Shown in pieces: positions 22,461 through 34,638 of a DNA stretch of 64,000 bases. How positions within the stretch are numbered: the stretch's first letter is position 1; the number at the start of each line of letters is the position of its first letter. The translations under genes were made by a program, and so were the position numbers. The notes beneath the pieces are model-generated. The model was given only the letters and a program-made list of their open reading frames with translations, was not told where the DNA came from and searched no databases. Origin of the DNA: an uncultured Bdellovibrionales bacterium (GTDB taxonomy: Bacteria > Patescibacteriota > Minisyncoccia > Moranbacterales > UBA1568); NCBI GenBank assembly GCA_964395165.1, contig CAYMZY010000001.1, positions 1,695 through 65,694 of the forward strand, given 5' to 3'.

Positions 22461-23168
22461 ATGTGTGATTTCCAGTTCTCTATGTTCGATGTAGCGGTTT
22501 TTGAACAGCGTTTCGGTATCAAAGTTAAGAACAAGGCTTTTTTTCAGGAAGCCCTGATTCATCGTTCCTATTTGAATGAGCATCGTGGGTGTGCTTCGCC
22601 GCACAATGAACGACTTGAATTTCTCGGGGACGCGGTACTTGAATTGGTCGTGACGGAAAACCTTTTTCACCACTATGATCGTCCGGAAGGTGAGATGACT
22701 GCCTGGCGAGCAGCGCTTGTCAATGGTGATATGCTGGCCAGGATCGGACAAGGTCTCGGAGTGGATGATTTTCTTCTGATGAGCCGGGGCGAAGCCAAGG
22801 ATACCGGACGGGCGCGGCAGTATATCGTCGCCAATGCCATGGAAGCGATCATTGGAGCGCTTTATCTCGATCAGGGATACGAGGCCGCGCAGGTATTCAT
22901 CACGACACATATTCTGTCGCATTTGCCGGAGGTGCTTGATCAGAAGCTCTACGCGGACGCGAAGAGTTTCTTCCAGGAGAAAGCCCAAGAGCATTTCGGA
23001 GTGACGCCGACGTATCGGGTCATCAAGGAATGGGGGCCAGATCATGACCGGCATTTCATCGCCGGAGTCTTTGTTGGGGAAGAACTGATCGCAGAGGGCG
23101 AGGGAGTCTCCAAACAGGAAGCTCAGCGTGCCGCCGCCAAGCAAGCATTGACAAATAAGGGTTGGTAG
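22461..23168 (+). CDS. rnc: ribonuclease III
   Basis: Catalytic signature ERLEFLGDAVLELVVTE. C-terminal dsRBD. Confidence 0.85.
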   Translation: MCDFQFSMFDVAVFEQRFGIKVKNKAFFQEALIHRSYLNEHRGCASPHNERLEFLGDAVLELVVTENLFHHYDRPEGEMTAWRAALVNGDMLARIGQGLGVDDFLLMSRGEAKDTGRARQYIVANAMEAIIGALYLDQGYEAAQVFITTHILSHLPEVLDQKLYADAKSFFQEKAQEHFGVTPTYRVIKEWGPDHDRHFIAGVFVGEELIAEGEGVSKQEAQRAAAKQALTNKGW

Positions 23169-23176
23169 TGTATAAT
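23148..23176 (+). promoter_or_regulatory. perfect consensus sigma70 promoter TTGACA-N17-TATAAT (overlaps the 3' end of rnc)
   Basis: Both hexamers are exact and the spacer is 17 nt. Predicted TSS about 23183. Confidence 0.5.
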
Positions 23177-23211
23177 AAAATTAAGTACCTAAAGTGGGTT
23201 TCTTTTTGACC

Positions 23212-23232
23212 GGCCTCTAAAGGCCTTTTTTT
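23212..23232 (+). terminator. weak hairpin ggcc-tctaaa-ggcc + T7 (rnc terminator or attenuator in the small-ORF leader)
   Basis: 4-bp GC stem plus a run of 7 T. Confidence 0.3.
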
Positions 23233-23243
23233 GTGGAGGTAAA

Positions 23244-23423
23244 ATGGAAACGGTATCGGGTTCAACGCTGATACAGTTGGTGGAAAATTTCTGTACGGTA
23301 GTGGTTTTGCTCGCGGCCATCGGTCTTGGGTGGTATTTCCTTCTTGGAATAGGGAGGGATGTCCGAAGGACATGGTCACGGCGTCGTGGGCGGCGCAGCG
23401 GCGTTTCGTCGCACGATTCCTGA
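23244..23423 (+). CDS. small membrane peptide, 59 aa (one TM helix, Arg-rich C-terminal tail)
   Basis: GGAGGT RBS. METVSGSTLIQLVENFCTVVVLLAAIGLGWYFLLGIGRDVRRTWSRRRGRRSGVSSHDS. Below the ORF-track size cutoff. Flanked by a consensus promoter and a strong terminator. Confidence 0.4.
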   Translation: METVSGSTLIQLVENFCTVVVLLAAIGLGWYFLLGIGRDVRRTWSRRRGRRSGVSSHDS

Positions 23424-23431
23424 GTAAGGAA

Positions 23432-23470
23432 AGGGATGGGTACCAACGGTATCCATCCCTATTTCTTTTC
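23432..23470 (+). terminator. intrinsic terminator (13-bp stem agggatgggtacc/ggtatccatccct + U-rich tail)
   Basis: Stem, 3-nt loop and the tail atttcttttcc are seen directly. Confidence 0.5.
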
Positions 23471-23637
23471 CCGGTCAGAATCGGATATACTGGGAAAGTA
23501 TCCGTTTCAAGTCGGCGGACATTCTTGTATTCGTCCGGTTGCGGGTCGTTCGTCGTATTGGAAGGAATTTTTTTTGGGTCTTTGCCACCATCCGGTGTTT
23601 CCGTCTATCAAGTCTGAAATCATGAGAGTGTAGCCCT

Positions 23638-25926
23638 ATGTATCTCAAGCGTCTCGAAATATCCGGTTTCAAGTCTTTTGCCAACAAGACGGTATTGGAT
23701 TTTTCGGCCGCTTCTACTGAAGCCGCTTCAGGACGGGGTATCACAGCTATCGTCGGTCCGAACGGTTCCGGGAAATCCAATATCGCGGATGCTATCCGTT
23801 TCGCGATCGGTGAACAGTCGTCCAAGAATCTCCGCGGGAAAAAATCTGAAGATGTCATTTTCGCCGGTACCGAAGGGAAGTCGCGGATGGGGAGTGCGGC
23901 CGTGACGCTGCATTTCGACAATACCGATCATCGGATACCGATCGAATTTTCGGAAGTCTCGATCACCCGTAAGATCCATCGGAGTGGTGAAGGAGAATAC
24001 CTGATTAACGGCAATAAGGTGCGCCTGCTCGACGTCGTCGATCTTTTGGCGAAGGCGGGTATCGGGAAGGAGAGCTATTGTGTCATCACTCAGGGTATGT
24101 CGGACGCAGTACTTCTGGCCTCACCTCTTGAACGGAGGGCGATTTTTGAGGATGCAGCCGGTGTGAAGCCGTATCAGATCGAGAAGGAGCGTGCAATACG
24201 GAAGCTTGAGAGTACGCGGGAGAATCTGGTCCGGGTGGACGCGCTTCTGGTCGAGATCGAACCGCATCTTCGCAATCTCAAGCGTCAGGCCGAGAAGGCG
24301 TCACAGGGAAAGGATGTCGCTGTTCGATTGAAGGAGAGGCAGTCTCTTTTGTATGGTTTTTTGTGGCATCAGTTCCAAGCGGAACGGGGGACACTGGTTC
24401 GTGATCGGGAGGCTGCGGAACAGGTCATCGGAGAACTCGAGGGGCGTTCGATTCGGCTGCGTGAAGAGGTGTCCGCAGTGAGTATCGCACTTGAAGACCA
24501 GAAAGAGGAGTTGGCGTGGCAGAACGAGGTCCGTGATCTGCATGCGGAAATCAACGCCTTGGCGCGCATCCGGAGTGTCGTTGAGGGGAAGAAAGAGGTG
24601 GAGATGGAGCGTCGGAAGGAGAAAGAAGTGGTGAAGACGATACCGGTTGATTTGGCTTTTGTGAAACGTTCGGTCGAGAAGATTGGCACGGATCAGGAAC
24701 AGCTCATCGAGCGGATCCGGTCGGTCGAGCAACTGGAAGATCTGCAGGATATCCGTGAATTCGCCCAGGTGATCAAACAGGAGCTTTTCGAGTTATCCGA
24801 AAAAGCGGGAGTCGGAAGTATCCGCGAGACGCGAATCATCGGCTTGAATTCGGAAGAGAAGGCCGAAAGTGATCTGAGGCTGCAGGCGCTCGAGAGTGAG
24901 TTGTCGGACGCGAAAGAACGGATTCTTCAAGGGGAAGCACACATCAAGGAAAAAGAGGAGATGATCGCTTCCCGTCGTGAAGCGAATCGTGTGCAACGGG
25001 AGATGTTTTTTACGAAAGAGAAGGAGTCGCGTGAATGTGAGCGGGCTCTGCAGCAGTTGAAGGACAATTTCAATGAATTGAAGGTCCGTTTGGCCCGAGT
25101 GGAAGTTCGCGAGGAGGACCTCATTTCGCTTATCCGAGAGGAGCTGTCCATGCGACCGGAAGACGTGACGTATGATGGGACGACCGGAATCGATCGGGAG
25201 CGGATCGAGCGCGAAATAAGTCGGCTCAAGGTGGAGGTGGAACATATCGGGACCATCGATCCGCTTATCGTCGATGAATATGAGGAGACGGCAAAGCGTT
25301 TCGAATTCCTGACGCACGAATCGGCTGATTTGAAACAGGCGCTTGAATCGCTCCGATCCGTAGTGAGAGAGATGGATGTCAAGATCGATCAGGCGTTCGA
25401 AACGACGTTTGATGAAATCAAGAAACGTTTCGTGCAGTATTTCACTTTGATCTTTGGCGGAGGGAAGGCGGAAATCACTCAGGTACGTCTGGCTCTCAGG
25501 CGTCGCGGAGAAACGGAAGAGTCGGATGACGCGAGCGAAGGCGAGGAGAATCAGGATGGGGTAGGAATCGAGATTTTCGCGTGCCCTCCGGGAAAGAAGA
25601 TCACGAACCTTTCCATGCTTTCGGGCGGCGAGCGTTCCCTGACGTCCCTCGCGCTTCTCTTCGCTATCATTTCGCATAATCCTCCGCCTTTCGCGGTGCT
25701 CGATGAAGTAGAGGCAGCGTTGGATGAGGCGAATTCTCGTCGATTCAGCACGATGCTTGAAGAATTATCCGGCCACACGCAGTTCATCGCGATCACCCAC
25801 AATCGCGAGACTATGGCGCGGGCCGGTCTCCTCTATGGCGTGACGATGCAGCGCGATGGTATCTCACAGTTGCTTTCGGTGCGCCTGGATCAAGTCGAAA
25901 AGGGTGGGAAATCGGTTTCGGGTTGA
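23638..25926 (+). CDS. smc: SMC-family chromosome segregation ATPase, short form (762 aa, no recognisable hinge)
   Basis: N-terminus MYLKRLEISGFKSFANKT...GPNGSGKSNIADAIRFAIGEQS. C-terminus LSGGERSLTSLALLFAI...AVLDEVEAALDEAN and ITHNRETMARAGLLYGVTMQ. The middle is coiled-coil only. Confidence 0.8.
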   Translation: MYLKRLEISGFKSFANKTVLDFSAASTEAASGRGITAIVGPNGSGKSNIADAIRFAIGEQSSKNLRGKKSEDVIFAGTEGKSRMGSAAVTLHFDNTDHRIPIEFSEVSITRKIHRSGEGEYLINGNKVRLLDVVDLLAKAGIGKESYCVITQGMSDAVLLASPLERRAIFEDAAGVKPYQIEKERAIRKLESTRENLVRVDALLVEIEPHLRNLKRQAEKASQGKDVAVRLKERQSLLYGFLWHQFQAERGTLVRDREAAEQVIGELEGRSIRLREEVSAVSIALEDQKEELAWQNEVRDLHAEINALARIRSVVEGKKEVEMERRKEKEVVKTIPVDLAFVKRSVEKIGTDQEQLIERIRSVEQLEDLQDIREFAQVIKQELFELSEKAGVGSIRETRIIGLNSEEKAESDLRLQALESELSDAKERILQGEAHIKEKEEMIASRREANRVQREMFFTKEKESRECERALQQLKDNFNELKVRLARVEVREEDLISLIREELSMRPEDVTYDGTTGIDRERIEREISRLKVEVEHIGTIDPLIVDEYEETAKRFEFLTHESADLKQALESLRSVVREMDVKIDQAFETTFDEIKKRFVQYFTLIFGGGKAEITQVRLALRRRGETEESDDASEGEENQDGVGIEIFACPPGKKITNLSMLSGGERSLTSLALLFAIISHNPPPFAVLDEVEAALDEANSRRFSTMLEELSGHTQFIAITHNRETMARAGLLYGVTMQRDGISQLLSVRLDQVEKGGKSVSG

Positions 25927-33922: not shown

Positions 33923-34396
33923 TCAGTCAGTGACCGACTGTGCTCTGATCCAGTCAGTCTCCTTGAACCCCTCCCTTATTTCCTGCTTAATATAATAAGG
34001 CATATTTACTTCGGAGCTACCATACCACTTTTCGACAAGTTCAAGTCTTTTTCGAATTTGCCGGGCCCGATCTGGGCATCCCGAGAACGGTATCAGTTCT
34101 TGGACACGCGCCAGGAGCTTCCCTGAGCAGTACGGCACGAACCGCGAAGGACGATACTGCACGGCCAGTGCCATACAGTCGAAGTTATTCGCGTCAGCGA
34201 GCAACTCGAGCGCCTGTTCGGTATGCGCGGCATTAAGACTGCTGATAAGGTTTTTGATGCGGCCCGTATCGGCTGGTTTGTGCTTGCAGTCTCCGATGAG
34301 AGCTGCTATCTCTTGCAGATGATGCCCTGCGCTTTCTTCGCGCTTCGGAGAGCGAAGCTTGAGTTGAAGTAAGCAAGCTGTGAAAAGAGCGTTCAT
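33923..34396 (-). CDS. hypothetical protein (157 aa), no recognised domain
   Basis: ORF with a plausible terminator. AT-rich 240-nt upstream region. Confidence 0.4.
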   Translation of the reverse strand: MNALFTACLLQLKLRSPKREESAGHHLQEIAALIGDCKHKPADTGRIKNLISSLNAAHTEQALELLADANNFDCMALAVQYRPSRFVPYCSGKLLARVQELIPFSGCPDRARQIRKRLELVEKWYGSSEVNMPYYIKQEIREGFKETDWIRAQSVTD

Positions 34397-34638
34397 TTCG
34401 TATCCTTTCGGGATAGAGGAGGGGGTAAAAGAACCGTTTATTTTCAGTAAAATAAGACTTCCAGCCTCATTAACTGAAATTTGATTATATCATATAAAGT
34501 TTGTTATGTCAATATAACGGGTGCAGAGGTTCAATCAGTAAGTGTAAAACCGTAATTTCAGTGTATGGTACGGGAGTACTGATTGTTGACTATCGAGGAA
34601 TGGGAAATCGTCGTCAGCGAACGTGAAGACTTGGGTTT

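What the first reader, a model, noticed from the sequence alone, without database searches (positions are those of the whole stretch)
23148..23476. Free-standing 59-codon membrane-peptide gene with a perfect consensus promoter, strong RBS and strong terminator (type I toxin-like)
**What the sequence shows.**
- Immediately after rnc there is an exact TTGACA-N17-TATAAT promoter (23148-23176).
- A short GC hairpin plus T7 follows (23212-23232), which is either the rnc terminator or a leader attenuator.
- A GGAGGT RBS precedes an ORF at 23244-23423. It encodes METVSGSTLIQLVENFCTVVVLLAAIGLGWYFLLGIGRDVRRTWSRRRGRRSGVSSHDS: one TM helix plus an Arg-rich tail.
- A 13-bp-stem intrinsic terminator follows (23432-23470).
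- The ORF is below the 60-aa cutoff of the ORF track.

**Interpretation.** The architecture (a small hydrophobic peptide with a charged tail, and its own very strong expression signals) resembles type I toxins (Hok/TisB/Fst-like) or small regulatory membrane peptides. An antisense or overlapping sRNA would be expected if it is a type I toxin-antitoxin.

**Alternative.** The real product is a small RNA from the consensus promoter, and the ORF is incidental.
Basis: partly seen in the sequence, partly recalled or inferred. Interest (0 to 1): 0.5.

Follow-up and report, generated by a model that had tools for sequence, protein, structure and literature searches.

The report
Small membrane-peptide gene in variable cassette
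A real 59-codon gene for a single-helix membrane peptide sits between the RNase III and SMC genes of an uncultured Moranbacteria (CPR) bacterium; it belongs to an undescribed family in a fast-changing, horizontally swapped peptide cassette, and nothing shows it is a type I toxin.

Summary
These are a 12/12 sigma-70 consensus promoter straddling the rnc stop codon, a weak hairpin plus U7 (T1), a GGAGG ribosome-binding site, a 59-codon ORF and a 13-bp terminator (T2).

The ORF is a real gene.
- Homologous ORFs occupy the same rnc-smc gap in related Moraniibacteriota genomes.
- Substitutions follow codon position (3 > 1 > 2), and dN/dS is 0.2-0.35.
- Five residues are invariant, with exactly 22 residues from the invariant Cys to the invariant Asp.
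- Each ORF has a Shine-Dalgarno motif, and neighbouring peptide ORFs overlap stop to start.

The promoter, T1 and T2 are conserved or covary in ten genomes whose synonymous sites are mostly saturated.

The gap holds a hypervariable cassette of one to three unrelated small membrane peptides (families A-D). The window keeps only A. Whole cassettes have been exchanged between species.

No known protein or RNA family matches. No antisense promoter or antisense terminator was found. The "sRNA only" alternative is rejected. The type I toxin reading remains an untested resemblance.

Best reading: a lineage-specific accessory membrane peptide with N-terminus out and C-terminus in, transcribed from a strong promoter that a leader terminator throttles.

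The parts
22461..23168 (+). rnc (RNase III), upstream neighbour. Its last codons contain the -35 hexamer.
   Evidence: ORF. Pfam Ribonuclease_3 and dsrm on the identical gene. rnc-smc synteny across Patescibacteria.
23148..23176 (+). Sigma-70-type promoter, TTGACA-N17-TATAAT.
   Evidence: 12/12 match. The same position scores 10-12/12 in ten related genomes. The Leu codon that forms the -35 is TTG in 10/10 promoter-bearing genomes and varies (CTC, CTG, CTA, CTT, TTG) in relatives without the -10.
23183..23190 (+). Inferred transcription start region. The conserved AAGTACCT motif begins 6-8 nt after the -10.
   Evidence: Conserved in 8-9 of 10 genomes at fixed distance from the -10. The start site itself is inferred, not measured.
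23212..23232 (+). T1: a weak intrinsic terminator (5-bp GC stem, 4-nt loop, U7). It is the rnc terminator and, at the same time, a leader attenuator for the peptide transcript.
   Evidence: A 4-8-bp hairpin plus U4-7 is present at this place in all ten genomes, with changed stems (GGCC/GGCC, GGGC/GCCC, GGUCUC/GAGGCC) and G-U pairs valid only on the + strand.
23235..23239 (+). Shine-Dalgarno sequence GGAGG.
   Evidence: GGAG-type motifs lie 4-7 nt before every homologous ORF.
23244..23423 (+). 59-aa family-A small membrane peptide. It has an acidic N-terminus (residues 1-16), a 22-residue hydrophobic core from invariant C17 to just before invariant D39, and a tail with net charge +5.
   Evidence: Homologues lie only between rnc and smc. 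dN/dS is 0.19-0.35. Substitutions by codon position 1/2/3 are 400/272/542. M1, E14, C17, F32 and D39 are invariant. AlphaFold2 predicts one helix over residues 4-53.
23432..23470 (+). T2: a strong intrinsic terminator (13-bp stem, 3-nt loop, U-rich tail).
   Evidence: In ten genomes 95% of cells are paired, 6 of 13 pairs have compensatory changes, and 0 of 500 shuffles reach the observed score. Many G-U pairs make it specific to the + strand.
23479..23491 (+). Conserved AATCGGATATACT. This is the probable -10 (TATACT, 23486-23491) of the smc promoter and marks the downstream edge of the cassette.
   Evidence: Conserved after the terminator in all cassette-bearing relatives. A related GGTATACT follows the terminator in L065, which has no cassette. 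The promoter function is inferred.
23638..25926 (+). smc, downstream neighbour.
   Evidence: Pfam SMC_N on the identical gene.

Best explanation
The ORF at 23244-23423 is a real, translated gene for a 59-residue single-pass membrane peptide.

**The peptide.**
- It has a short acidic N-terminus, a 22-residue hydrophobic helix and a basic tail.
- The positive-inside rule predicts the N-terminus outside and the C-terminus in the cytoplasm (inferred).
- It belongs to a previously undescribed family, here called A. The family is restricted to one Moraniibacteriota clade and always lies between rnc and smc.

**Expression (inferred from conserved signals).**
- A near-consensus sigma-70 promoter straddles the rnc stop codon and starts transcription near 23183.
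- After about 30 nt the transcript meets T1, a weak terminator that also ends rnc transcription.
- Only read-through RNA carries the SD and the ORF. T1 therefore throttles a strong promoter.
- T2 ends the unit and insulates the smc promoter.

**The locus.**
- The gap is a hypervariable cassette holding one to three unrelated small TM peptides (A, B, C, D).
- Neighbouring cistrons overlap stop to start.
- Genes are gained, lost and pseudogenised, and whole cassettes are exchanged between species by recombination in the conserved flanks.
- This window carries a divergent single-gene allele with A only.

**Most likely mode of action (inferred, not shown).** The helix inserts in the cytoplasmic membrane. 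It acts through helix-helix contacts, either self-association or binding of a membrane partner, with invariant E14/C17 and F32/D39 positioned at the two membrane interfaces. This would make it an accessory strain-variable function rather than a housekeeping one.
For: **Coding.**
- Homologous ORFs occur in L001/L081, L003-L006, L008, L009, L093 and L171-L178, and in 19 protein clusters.
- Every one looked up lies between rnc and smc.
- dN/dS is 0.19-0.35, against 0.01-0.03 for rnc.
- Substitutions fall in the order position 3 > 1 > 2 in families A, E, B and D.
- Five residues are invariant, and the Cys-to-Asp spacing is exactly 22 residues in 15 clusters.
- SD motifs precede every ORF, and neighbouring ORFs overlap stop to start.
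- Small TM ORFs in the gaps are strongly biased to one strand: 27 of 98 on the + strand against 4 of 111 on the - strand.

**Signals.**
- The promoter scores 10-12/12 in ten genomes whose synonymous sites are mostly saturated in rnc comparisons.
- T1 is present in all ten.
- T2 covaries.

**Structure.** AlphaFold2 predicts one helix over residues 4-53, with pLDDT 94-96 over residues 11-30.

**Cassette exchange.**
- In L001 versus L005, the flanks are 70-82% identical and the cassette 86-92%.
- In the window versus L002 or L171, the flanks are 80-94% identical and the cassette about 40%.

**Abundance.** The identical peptide occurs on at least 24 contigs from many samples.
Against: - No expression data exist. 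The transcription start, T1 read-through and translation are all inferred.
- The function is unknown. No partner protein is identified, and no family in Pfam, NCBIfam, PHROGs, PADLOC or PDB matches.
- Presence/absence variation, a premature TAG in L006, remnants of family C and horizontal exchange fit a conflict-type or selfish function (toxin, bacteriocin-like) at least as well as a benign accessory one.
- Two strains carry TATAAT>TGTAAT in the -10, so the promoter is not under absolute constraint.
- The GGAGG-to-ATG spacing of 4 nt is short.
Confidence: 0.6

Rival explanations
1. A type I toxin-antitoxin module. The peptide is a membrane-damaging toxin whose translation is held down by an antisense or divergently encoded sRNA that was not detected here.
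For: - The peptide meets the protein-level criteria used to predict type I toxins: under 70 aa, one TM helix, and a polar or charged C-terminus with a Trp after the helix (criteria in PMC2887945).
- It lies in an intergenic islet with related and unrelated small TM ORFs in tandem.
- The islet shows presence/absence variation, pseudogenisation and horizontal exchange.
- The leader terminator T1 could serve to keep expression low.
Against: - No minus-strand promoter is conserved in ten genomes.
- T1 and T2 have G-U pairs that would be C-A mismatches on the minus strand, and no U-run follows them on that strand.
- Neither strand of the ORF region is unusually structured (z = -1.48 for both).
- No Rfam antitoxin RNA and no Pfam toxin family matches, even at E up to 10.
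- The gene has a strong SD and a consensus promoter.
- In relatives the gene is translationally coupled to other peptide genes, unlike the usual monocistronic toxin mRNA.
Confidence: 0.15
2. An exported or contact-delivered membrane-active peptide directed at competitors or at the host cell of this episymbiont. This would resemble leaderless or multi-peptide bacteriocins. The hypervariable, exchangeable cassette would reflect an arms race.
For: - Operons of two or three small cationic, hydrophobic, Trp-containing peptides occur in the gap.
- Alleles are very diverse between close species and are exchanged horizontally.
- The lifestyle of CPR bacteria is drawn from general knowledge, not tested here.
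Against: - No double-glycine leader is visible by inspection of the sequences.
- No transporter or immunity-type gene is nearby. The neighbours are L32, NusB, RNase III, SMC and S16.
- The peptide has a classical 22-residue TM core with a positive-inside charge distribution, which fits a resident membrane protein.
- dN/dS is below 1.
Confidence: 0.1
3. The product is only a small RNA from the consensus promoter, for example the roughly 50-nt P-to-T1 transcript, and the ORF is incidental.
For: The promoter is followed within about 50 nt by a terminator. The first bases of the transcript (AGUACCU) are conserved. A short RNA may therefore well be made as a by-product.
Against: - The ORF shows codon-position bias, dN/dS below 1, invariant residues, a fixed-length hydrophobic core and a conserved SD.
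- No Rfam match is found.
- The leader has no conserved structure other than T1.
Confidence: 0.03
4. The peptide is a fragment or relative of the CPR type IV secretion pilin family (PF18895).
For: A phmmer search of 1.84 billion proteins returned two multi-repeat PF18895 proteins at E of about 1e-5. They carry the motif AGFYLILGLGxDESRT, which resembles GLGWYFLLGIGRDVRRT in the window peptide.
Against: - The scores are sums over 4-5 weak repeats.
- The family profile does not match (hhalign probability 0.5%).
- Pfam gives no PF18895 hit for any peptide of families A, B or C, even at E up to 10 (family D was not scanned against Pfam).
- The resemblance is confined to the window sequence.
Confidence: 0.02

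Closest known systems
Type I toxins with one TM helix and a charged C-terminal tail (TxpA/BsrG, Fst/Ldr, Hok classes)
   Same: - Size under 70 aa, a single hydrophobic helix, and a polar or basic C-terminus with a Trp after the helix.
- Location in an intergenic islet.
- Tandem small ORFs, strain-to-strain variability and rapid sequence divergence.
   Different: - No antisense or divergent sRNA gene is detectable.
- There is no sequence relationship to any known toxin family.
- The gene has a strong SD and a consensus promoter, without a structured, translationally inert mRNA.
- In relatives it is one cistron of a translationally coupled operon of different peptides.
Small bacterial inner-membrane proteins that act by binding larger membrane proteins or self-associating (e.g. 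MgrB, AcrZ, KdpF, CydX; from general knowledge)
   Same: - A short bitopic helix with positive-inside topology.
- Its own SD.
- Conserved residues concentrated at the membrane interfaces.
- Purifying selection.
   Different: - Those proteins are usually encoded next to, or regulated with, their partner, and are stably inherited.
- This family sits between housekeeping genes with no obvious partner.
- It lies in a cassette that is hypervariable and horizontally exchanged.
Leaderless or multi-peptide bacteriocin operons (e.g. aureocin A70-type; from general knowledge)
   Same: - Several small cationic, hydrophobic peptides are encoded head to tail in one short operon.
- Allelic diversity is high.
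   Different: - No transporter or immunity genes are nearby.
- The peptides have full-length TM cores and a charge distribution typical of resident membrane proteins.
Promoter-proximal intrinsic terminators (leader attenuators)
   Same: A hairpin plus U-run lies about 30 nt after the inferred start and upstream of the SD.
   Different: - No alternative antiterminator structure, leader peptide or known riboswitch or leader family is found.
- The hairpin also doubles as the terminator of the upstream rnc gene.

Membership tests
Type I toxin-antitoxin system | Small (under 70 aa) hydrophobic protein with a TM helix and a polar or charged C-terminus. | tested here: met
   59 aa. One helix over residues 4-53. 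A 22-residue hydrophobic core and a tail with net charge +5. Criteria as stated in PMC2887945.
Type I toxin-antitoxin system | An sRNA antitoxin gene, either antisense to or adjacent to and complementary with the toxin mRNA. | tested here: inconclusive
   No conserved minus-strand sigma-70-like promoter in ten genomes. The hairpins are specific to the + strand. No Rfam hit at E up to 10. The minus-strand fold has z = -1.48. Sequence analysis alone cannot exclude an unconventional or trans-encoded RNA.
Type I toxin-antitoxin system | Toxicity (membrane damage or growth arrest) on overexpression, relieved by the sRNA. | not testable with these tools
   Needs expression experiments.
Type I toxin-antitoxin system | Homology to a described toxin family (Hok, Ldr/Fst, TisB, Ibs, ShoB, TxpA/BsrG and others). 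| tested here: not met
   None of these families was among the hits in Pfam or NCBIfam at E up to 10. All relatives among 5.8 and 1.84 billion proteins are unnamed Moranbacteria or Patescibacteria peptides.
Type I toxin-antitoxin system | Toxin mRNA kept translationally inert by structure that sequesters the SD. | tested here: inconclusive
   The minimum-free-energy fold pairs part of the SD and start codon with ORF sequence. The region is not more structured than shuffles (z = -1.48), and the leader has no conserved structure other than T1.
Protein-coding gene (as opposed to a chance ORF) | ORF conserved in relatives, with a codon-position substitution pattern and dN/dS below 1. | tested here: met
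Sigma-70-type promoter | -35 and -10 hexamers with 16-18-nt spacing, conserved beyond coding constraint; a mapped transcription start. | tested here: inconclusive
   The hexamers and spacing are met and conserved. The transcription start cannot be mapped with these tools.
Intrinsic (Rho-independent) terminator | GC-rich hairpin followed by a U-run, with the stem maintained by compensatory changes. | tested here: met
   T2: 95% of cells paired, 6 of 13 pairs with compensatory changes. T1: a hairpin plus U-run in 10 of 10 genomes with altered stems.
T4SS pilin (PF18895) | A match to the family profile; two TM helices joined by a short charged loop. | tested here: not met
   No PF18895 hit at E up to 10. 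hhalign probability 0.5%. The peptide has a single helix.
Class II or leaderless bacteriocin locus | A dedicated transporter and/or immunity gene adjacent; a double-glycine leader for class II. | tested here: not met
   The neighbours are rpmF, nusB, rnc, smc and rpsP. No GG leader is visible by inspection of the peptide sequences.

The most novel reading that the evidence does not exclude
The rnc-smc cassette would be a conflict locus of candidate-phyla-radiation bacteria. It would be a horizontally exchanged islet of membrane-active toxin-like peptides, either type I-like with an unrecognised RNA or protein antidote, or directed at host or competitor membranes. The window peptide would be one allele. 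I found no report of a type I-like toxin system in Patescibacteria.
Probability: 0.2. Interest if true: 0.6.

Novelty: new member of a known kind. Interest (0 to 1): 0.4.

Why it matters
Small membrane proteins are systematically missed in annotation, and almost nothing is known about them in the uncultured, reduced-genome CPR bacteria.

This case shows a small-protein family that passes coding tests. It is embedded at a fixed housekeeping junction (rnc-smc) that behaves as a hypervariable, recombining cassette. It offers:
- clean expression signals (promoter, attenuator, terminator) for CPR gene-expression studies;
- a compact set of natural alleles for testing what fast-evolving membrane peptides do in episymbiotic bacteria.

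It also shows that toxin-like protein features alone do not establish a type I toxin-antitoxin module.

Tried and rejected
- **Known RNA families.** Rfam found nothing at gathering thresholds across the whole window. Across 22900-23900 at E up to 10 it found only weak terminator-driven hits to sroB and the rimP leader.
- **Known protein families.** Pfam, NCBIfam, PHROGs, PADLOC and the PDB gave nothing significant for the window peptide and representatives of the other peptide families.
- **Phages, plasmids and viral contigs.** tblastn against phages and plasmids, and a scan of IMG/VR viral contigs, gave no relatives.
- **T4SS pilin relationship.** phmmer hits suggested it. Profile comparison rejected it.
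- **Antisense promoter search** in ten genomes found nothing conserved.
- **Special mRNA structure or SD sequestration.** The fold is not significant once the terminators are excluded.
- **Alternative leader structure or antiterminator.** Only T1 is predicted.
- **Pairing between the conserved 5' AGUACCU and the conserved GGUACC apex of T2.** By hand I find at most 5 bp. I dismissed it as too weak against a 13-bp intramolecular stem.
- **Paralogues or similar SD-led small TM ORFs elsewhere in the 64-kb window.** None were found.
- **Strain-level polymorphism among ten contigs with the identical peptide.** The contigs are nearly clonal and uninformative, apart from three SNPs in the leader.
- **Metagenome scan with Rnc.** It added few close relatives.
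- **Literature.** No paper links type I toxin-antitoxin systems with Patescibacteria. The two papers that mention both small membrane proteins and the candidate phyla radiation are unrelated reviews.
Full report
**1. Observation.**

The window comes from a Candidatus Moraniibacteriota (Patescibacteria/CPR) genome. The closest Rnc matches are Moraniibacteriota metagenome-assembled genomes. The same 59-aa peptide lies on at least 24 contigs from many metagenomes, with the gene order GT2-rpmF-nusB-rnc-peptide-smc-rpsP.

- TTGACA (23148-23153), a 17-nt spacer and TATAAT (23171-23176) form a 12/12 promoter match.
- A GGCCU/AGGCC hairpin with U7 lies at 23212-23232. Its folding energy is -8.1 kcal/mol.
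- GGAGG lies at 23235-23239.
- The ORF runs 23244-23423.
- A 13-bp terminator stem lies at 23432-23460.

A perfect consensus promoter is not a chance event here. The window has two, against 0.01 expected from shuffles. The -35 lies within the last rnc codons. The -10 begins 3 nt after the rnc stop codon.

**2. Is the ORF a gene?**

A direct search of 5.8 billion proteins found only the peptide itself. tblastn against loci fetched with Rnc found homologous ORFs at the same position in five related genomes. They are only 42-57% identical, although Rnc is 92-95% identical.

That contrast is less odd than it looks. Synonymous sites in rnc are at or near saturation between most of these genomes (dS about 1-3 or not computable), so they are well-separated species.

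Five lines of evidence support coding.
- Where dS is measurable, the peptide has dN/dS of 0.19-0.35. For L001-L004 this is 18 synonymous differences over 42 sites against 20 non-synonymous over 114. rnc has dN/dS of 0.01-0.03.
- Differences by codon position 1/2/3 are 400/272/542 for family A. The same order holds for the three other peptide families.
- A profile search recovered 19 clusters, all unnamed proteins of Moranbacteria or Patescibacteria. All four clusters I looked up lie between rnc and smc.
- The family has invariant M1, E14, C17, F32 and D39. The span from the invariant Cys to the invariant Asp is exactly 22 residues in all 15 clusters.
- AlphaFold2 gives a single helix over residues 4-53.

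The N-terminal segment is acidic, with net charge -1 to -2. In the window's subfamily the tail is basic, with net charge +2 to +6. In the second subfamily (MEWIDKVEL...DIRQAEWW...) the tail is longer and of mixed charge. The Arg-rich tail is therefore not a family character.

The "incidental ORF / sRNA only" alternative is rejected.

**3. Expression signals.**

I aligned the rnc-smc gap of the window with seven close relatives and inspected two more. Five conserved islands stand in otherwise unalignable DNA.

(i) *The promoter.* It scores 10-12/12 in all ten genomes. The Leu codon that supplies the TTG of the -35 is TTG in 10 of 10 of these genomes. It varies freely in more distant relatives that lack the -10.

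(ii) *AGTACCT.* It begins 6-8 nt after the -10, at the inferred start.

(iii) *T1.* A 4-8-bp hairpin of -6 to -10 kcal/mol with U4-7 is present in all ten genomes. The stems differ, and G-U pairs make it valid only on the + strand.

(iv) *T2.* 95% of cells are paired. 6 of 13 pairs have compensatory changes. None of 500 shuffles reaches the observed score, and G-U pairs again restrict it to the + strand.

(v) *AATCGGATATACT.* It follows T2 and is probably the smc -10. A related GGTATACT follows the terminator in L065, which has a 110-bp gap and no peptide.

Because the promoter lies upstream of T1, and only 11 nt separate T1 from the ATG, any peptide mRNA must read through T1. T1 therefore ends rnc transcription and attenuates the peptide unit. 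No alternative structure is conserved in the leader. The start site, the read-through and translation itself are inferences.

**4. The locus is a variable cassette.**

HMMs built from the ORFs in the gaps define four families.
- A is the window's family. Its second subfamily, labelled E, occurs in L008, L009, L093 and L176.
- B is 65 aa and occurs in L001, L002, L004 and L005.
- C is about 40-50 aa and occurs in L003, L006, L007, L009, L171 and L174.
- D is about 45 aa and occurs in L008, L009, L083/L093, L176 and L011.

Genomes carry different combinations.

| Combination | Genomes |
|---|---|
| A only | window |
| B only | L002 |
| C only | L007 |
| C + A | L003, L006, L171, L174 |
| C remnant + A + B | L001, L004, L005 |
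| D + E, or C + D + E | L008, L009 |
| D + a 154-aa ORF + E | L093, L176 |

Each ORF has a GGAG-type SD. Adjacent ORFs overlap: the stop codon of C lies inside A codons 3-4, and the A stop and B start share ATGA. These overlaps are typical of translational coupling.

In 49 distinct gaps, small TM ORFs are strongly strand-biased, with 27 of 98 on the + strand against 4 of 111 on the - strand. They are concentrated in the Moraniibacteriota clade.

Decay is visible in three places.
- L006 has TAG at codon 5 of A.
- L001, L004 and L005 keep only the C-terminal end of C.
- L003 has a transposase-like gene (HTH_38) inserted in the leader.

**5. Horizontal exchange.**

The cassette history disagrees with that of the flanks.
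- L001 and L005 are 70-82% identical in rnc and smc but 86-92% identical across the whole cassette, non-coding parts included. The transitions lie at the rnc 3' end and the smc start.
- The window and its closest relatives (L002, L171) are 80-94% identical in the flanks. Identity falls to about 40% in the cassette, apart from the signal islands.
- L081, an independent assembly, encodes the same three gap ORFs as L001, with one residue differing in the C remnant. An assembly artefact is therefore unlikely.

The junction thus behaves as a recombination-exchanged, multi-allelic islet.

**6. What it is not.**

- No Rfam family matches.
- No family in Pfam, NCBIfam, PHROGs or PADLOC matches, and no PDB relative is found.
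- Nothing is found in phage, plasmid or viral-contig collections.
- phmmer hits to two tandem-repeat PF18895 (T4SS pilin) proteins were followed up. The family profile does not support them (hhalign probability 0.5%).
- The window has no paralogue and no other SD-led intergenic TM ORF.

**7. Type I toxin?**

The peptide meets the protein-level search criteria of Fozo et al. 2010: under 70 aa, a TM helix and a polar C-terminus, with tandem arrangement in an intergenic region as a further criterion (PMC2887945). The islet's variability is also reminiscent of toxin-antitoxin loci.

The defining partner, an antisense or complementary sRNA, has no support.
- No minus-strand promoter is conserved.
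- Both hairpins work only on the + strand.
- Neither strand of the ORF region folds better than shuffles (z = -1.48 for both).
- No known antitoxin RNA is found.
- The polycistronic, translationally coupled layout in relatives and the exposed strong SD are atypical.

I rate this reading at about 0.15. It cannot be excluded without RNA and toxicity data. I found no paper linking type I toxin-antitoxin systems with Patescibacteria.

**8. Most likely mechanism.**

*Shown.*
- The ORF is a conserved coding gene.
- The promoter, attenuator and terminator architecture is conserved.
- The product is a single hydrophobic helix.
- The cassette is variable and is exchanged between species.

*Inferred.*
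- Transcription starts near 23183.
- Termination at T1 is partial.
- Translation starts from GGAGG and the ATG.
- The peptide inserts with its N-terminus out and C-terminus in.
- It acts through helix-helix interaction, by self-association or with a membrane partner. The invariant Glu/Cys would sit at the outer interface and Phe...Asp at the inner interface.

The accessory, strain-variable character suggests a role in interaction or conflict rather than housekeeping. Which role is open.

**9. Verdict.**

The gene call is strongly supported. The type I toxin label is unproven.

This is a new, lineage-restricted family of small membrane peptides, that is, a new member of a known kind. Its genomic setting is unusual and well defined. 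Interest is moderate (0.4). It would be higher (about 0.6) if the cassette proved to be a toxin or conflict locus of CPR bacteria.

Noticed in passing
window 34484-34512 (- strand), with ORF 33923-34396 (-): This is the only other perfect TTGACA-N17-TATAAT in the window. It lies about 90 nt upstream of a 157-aa ORF that has no Pfam match.
   Followed up: partly
window 23436-23633 (+): Public gene callers annotate a 65-aa ORF here. Its ATG lies inside the T2 stem, and it runs across the conserved smc -10. Its frame and sequence are not conserved in relatives, where the similarity comes from the conserved DNA islands. It is probably spurious.
   Followed up: partly
L003 4734-5720 (- strand): A 328-aa transposase-like ORF is inserted in the cassette leader, between the promoter and start region and T1. 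It carries an HTH_38 domain, the N-terminal domain type I associate with IS30-family transposases (from memory, not tested).
   Followed up: partly
L006 4909-5069: The family-A ORF has an in-frame TAG at codon 5 (ATG CTG CGT GAT TAG). It is either a pseudogene or a shortened protein starting at a downstream TTG.
   Followed up: no
L001 2008-2127; L004 1059-1178; L005 2127-2246: Only the C-terminal end of the family-C peptide remains (...RWxHxRQSQxGxxHxA), after a deletion of its N-terminal and TM part.
   Followed up: partly
L083 3981-4445; L093 805-1269; L176 2008-2472: A conserved 154-aa soluble ORF ending ...DDDECFECH sits between the D and E peptides in one clade. It has no Pfam or PADLOC match.
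   Followed up: partly
window 23172, 23183 and 23210 (variants seen in L165 and L168): Two near-identical strains carry three SNPs in the 75-nt promoter-leader segment. One is TATAAT>TGTAAT in the -10. They have none in rnc (708 nt) or in the peptide ORF. A second peptide variant, S52N (P0025), also exists.
   Followed up: partly
L001 about 1950-2700 versus L005; window 23180-23600 versus L002 and L171: The cassette is more similar than the flanking housekeeping genes in one species pair (86-92% against 70-82%). It is far less similar in others (about 40% against 80-94%). This indicates exchange of whole cassettes by recombination.
   Followed up: yes
L083/L093 and L176/L178, just after rnc: In the sister clade the order is canonical: rnc stop, then terminator, then a TTGACA-containing promoter-like site, then the first peptide. 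In the window's clade the promoter precedes the rnc terminator.
   Followed up: no
rnc-smc junction across L001-L160: rnc-smc adjacency is widespread in Patescibacteria. The spacer ranges from 3 to about 2800 bp and holds unrelated content in different lineages.
   Followed up: partly
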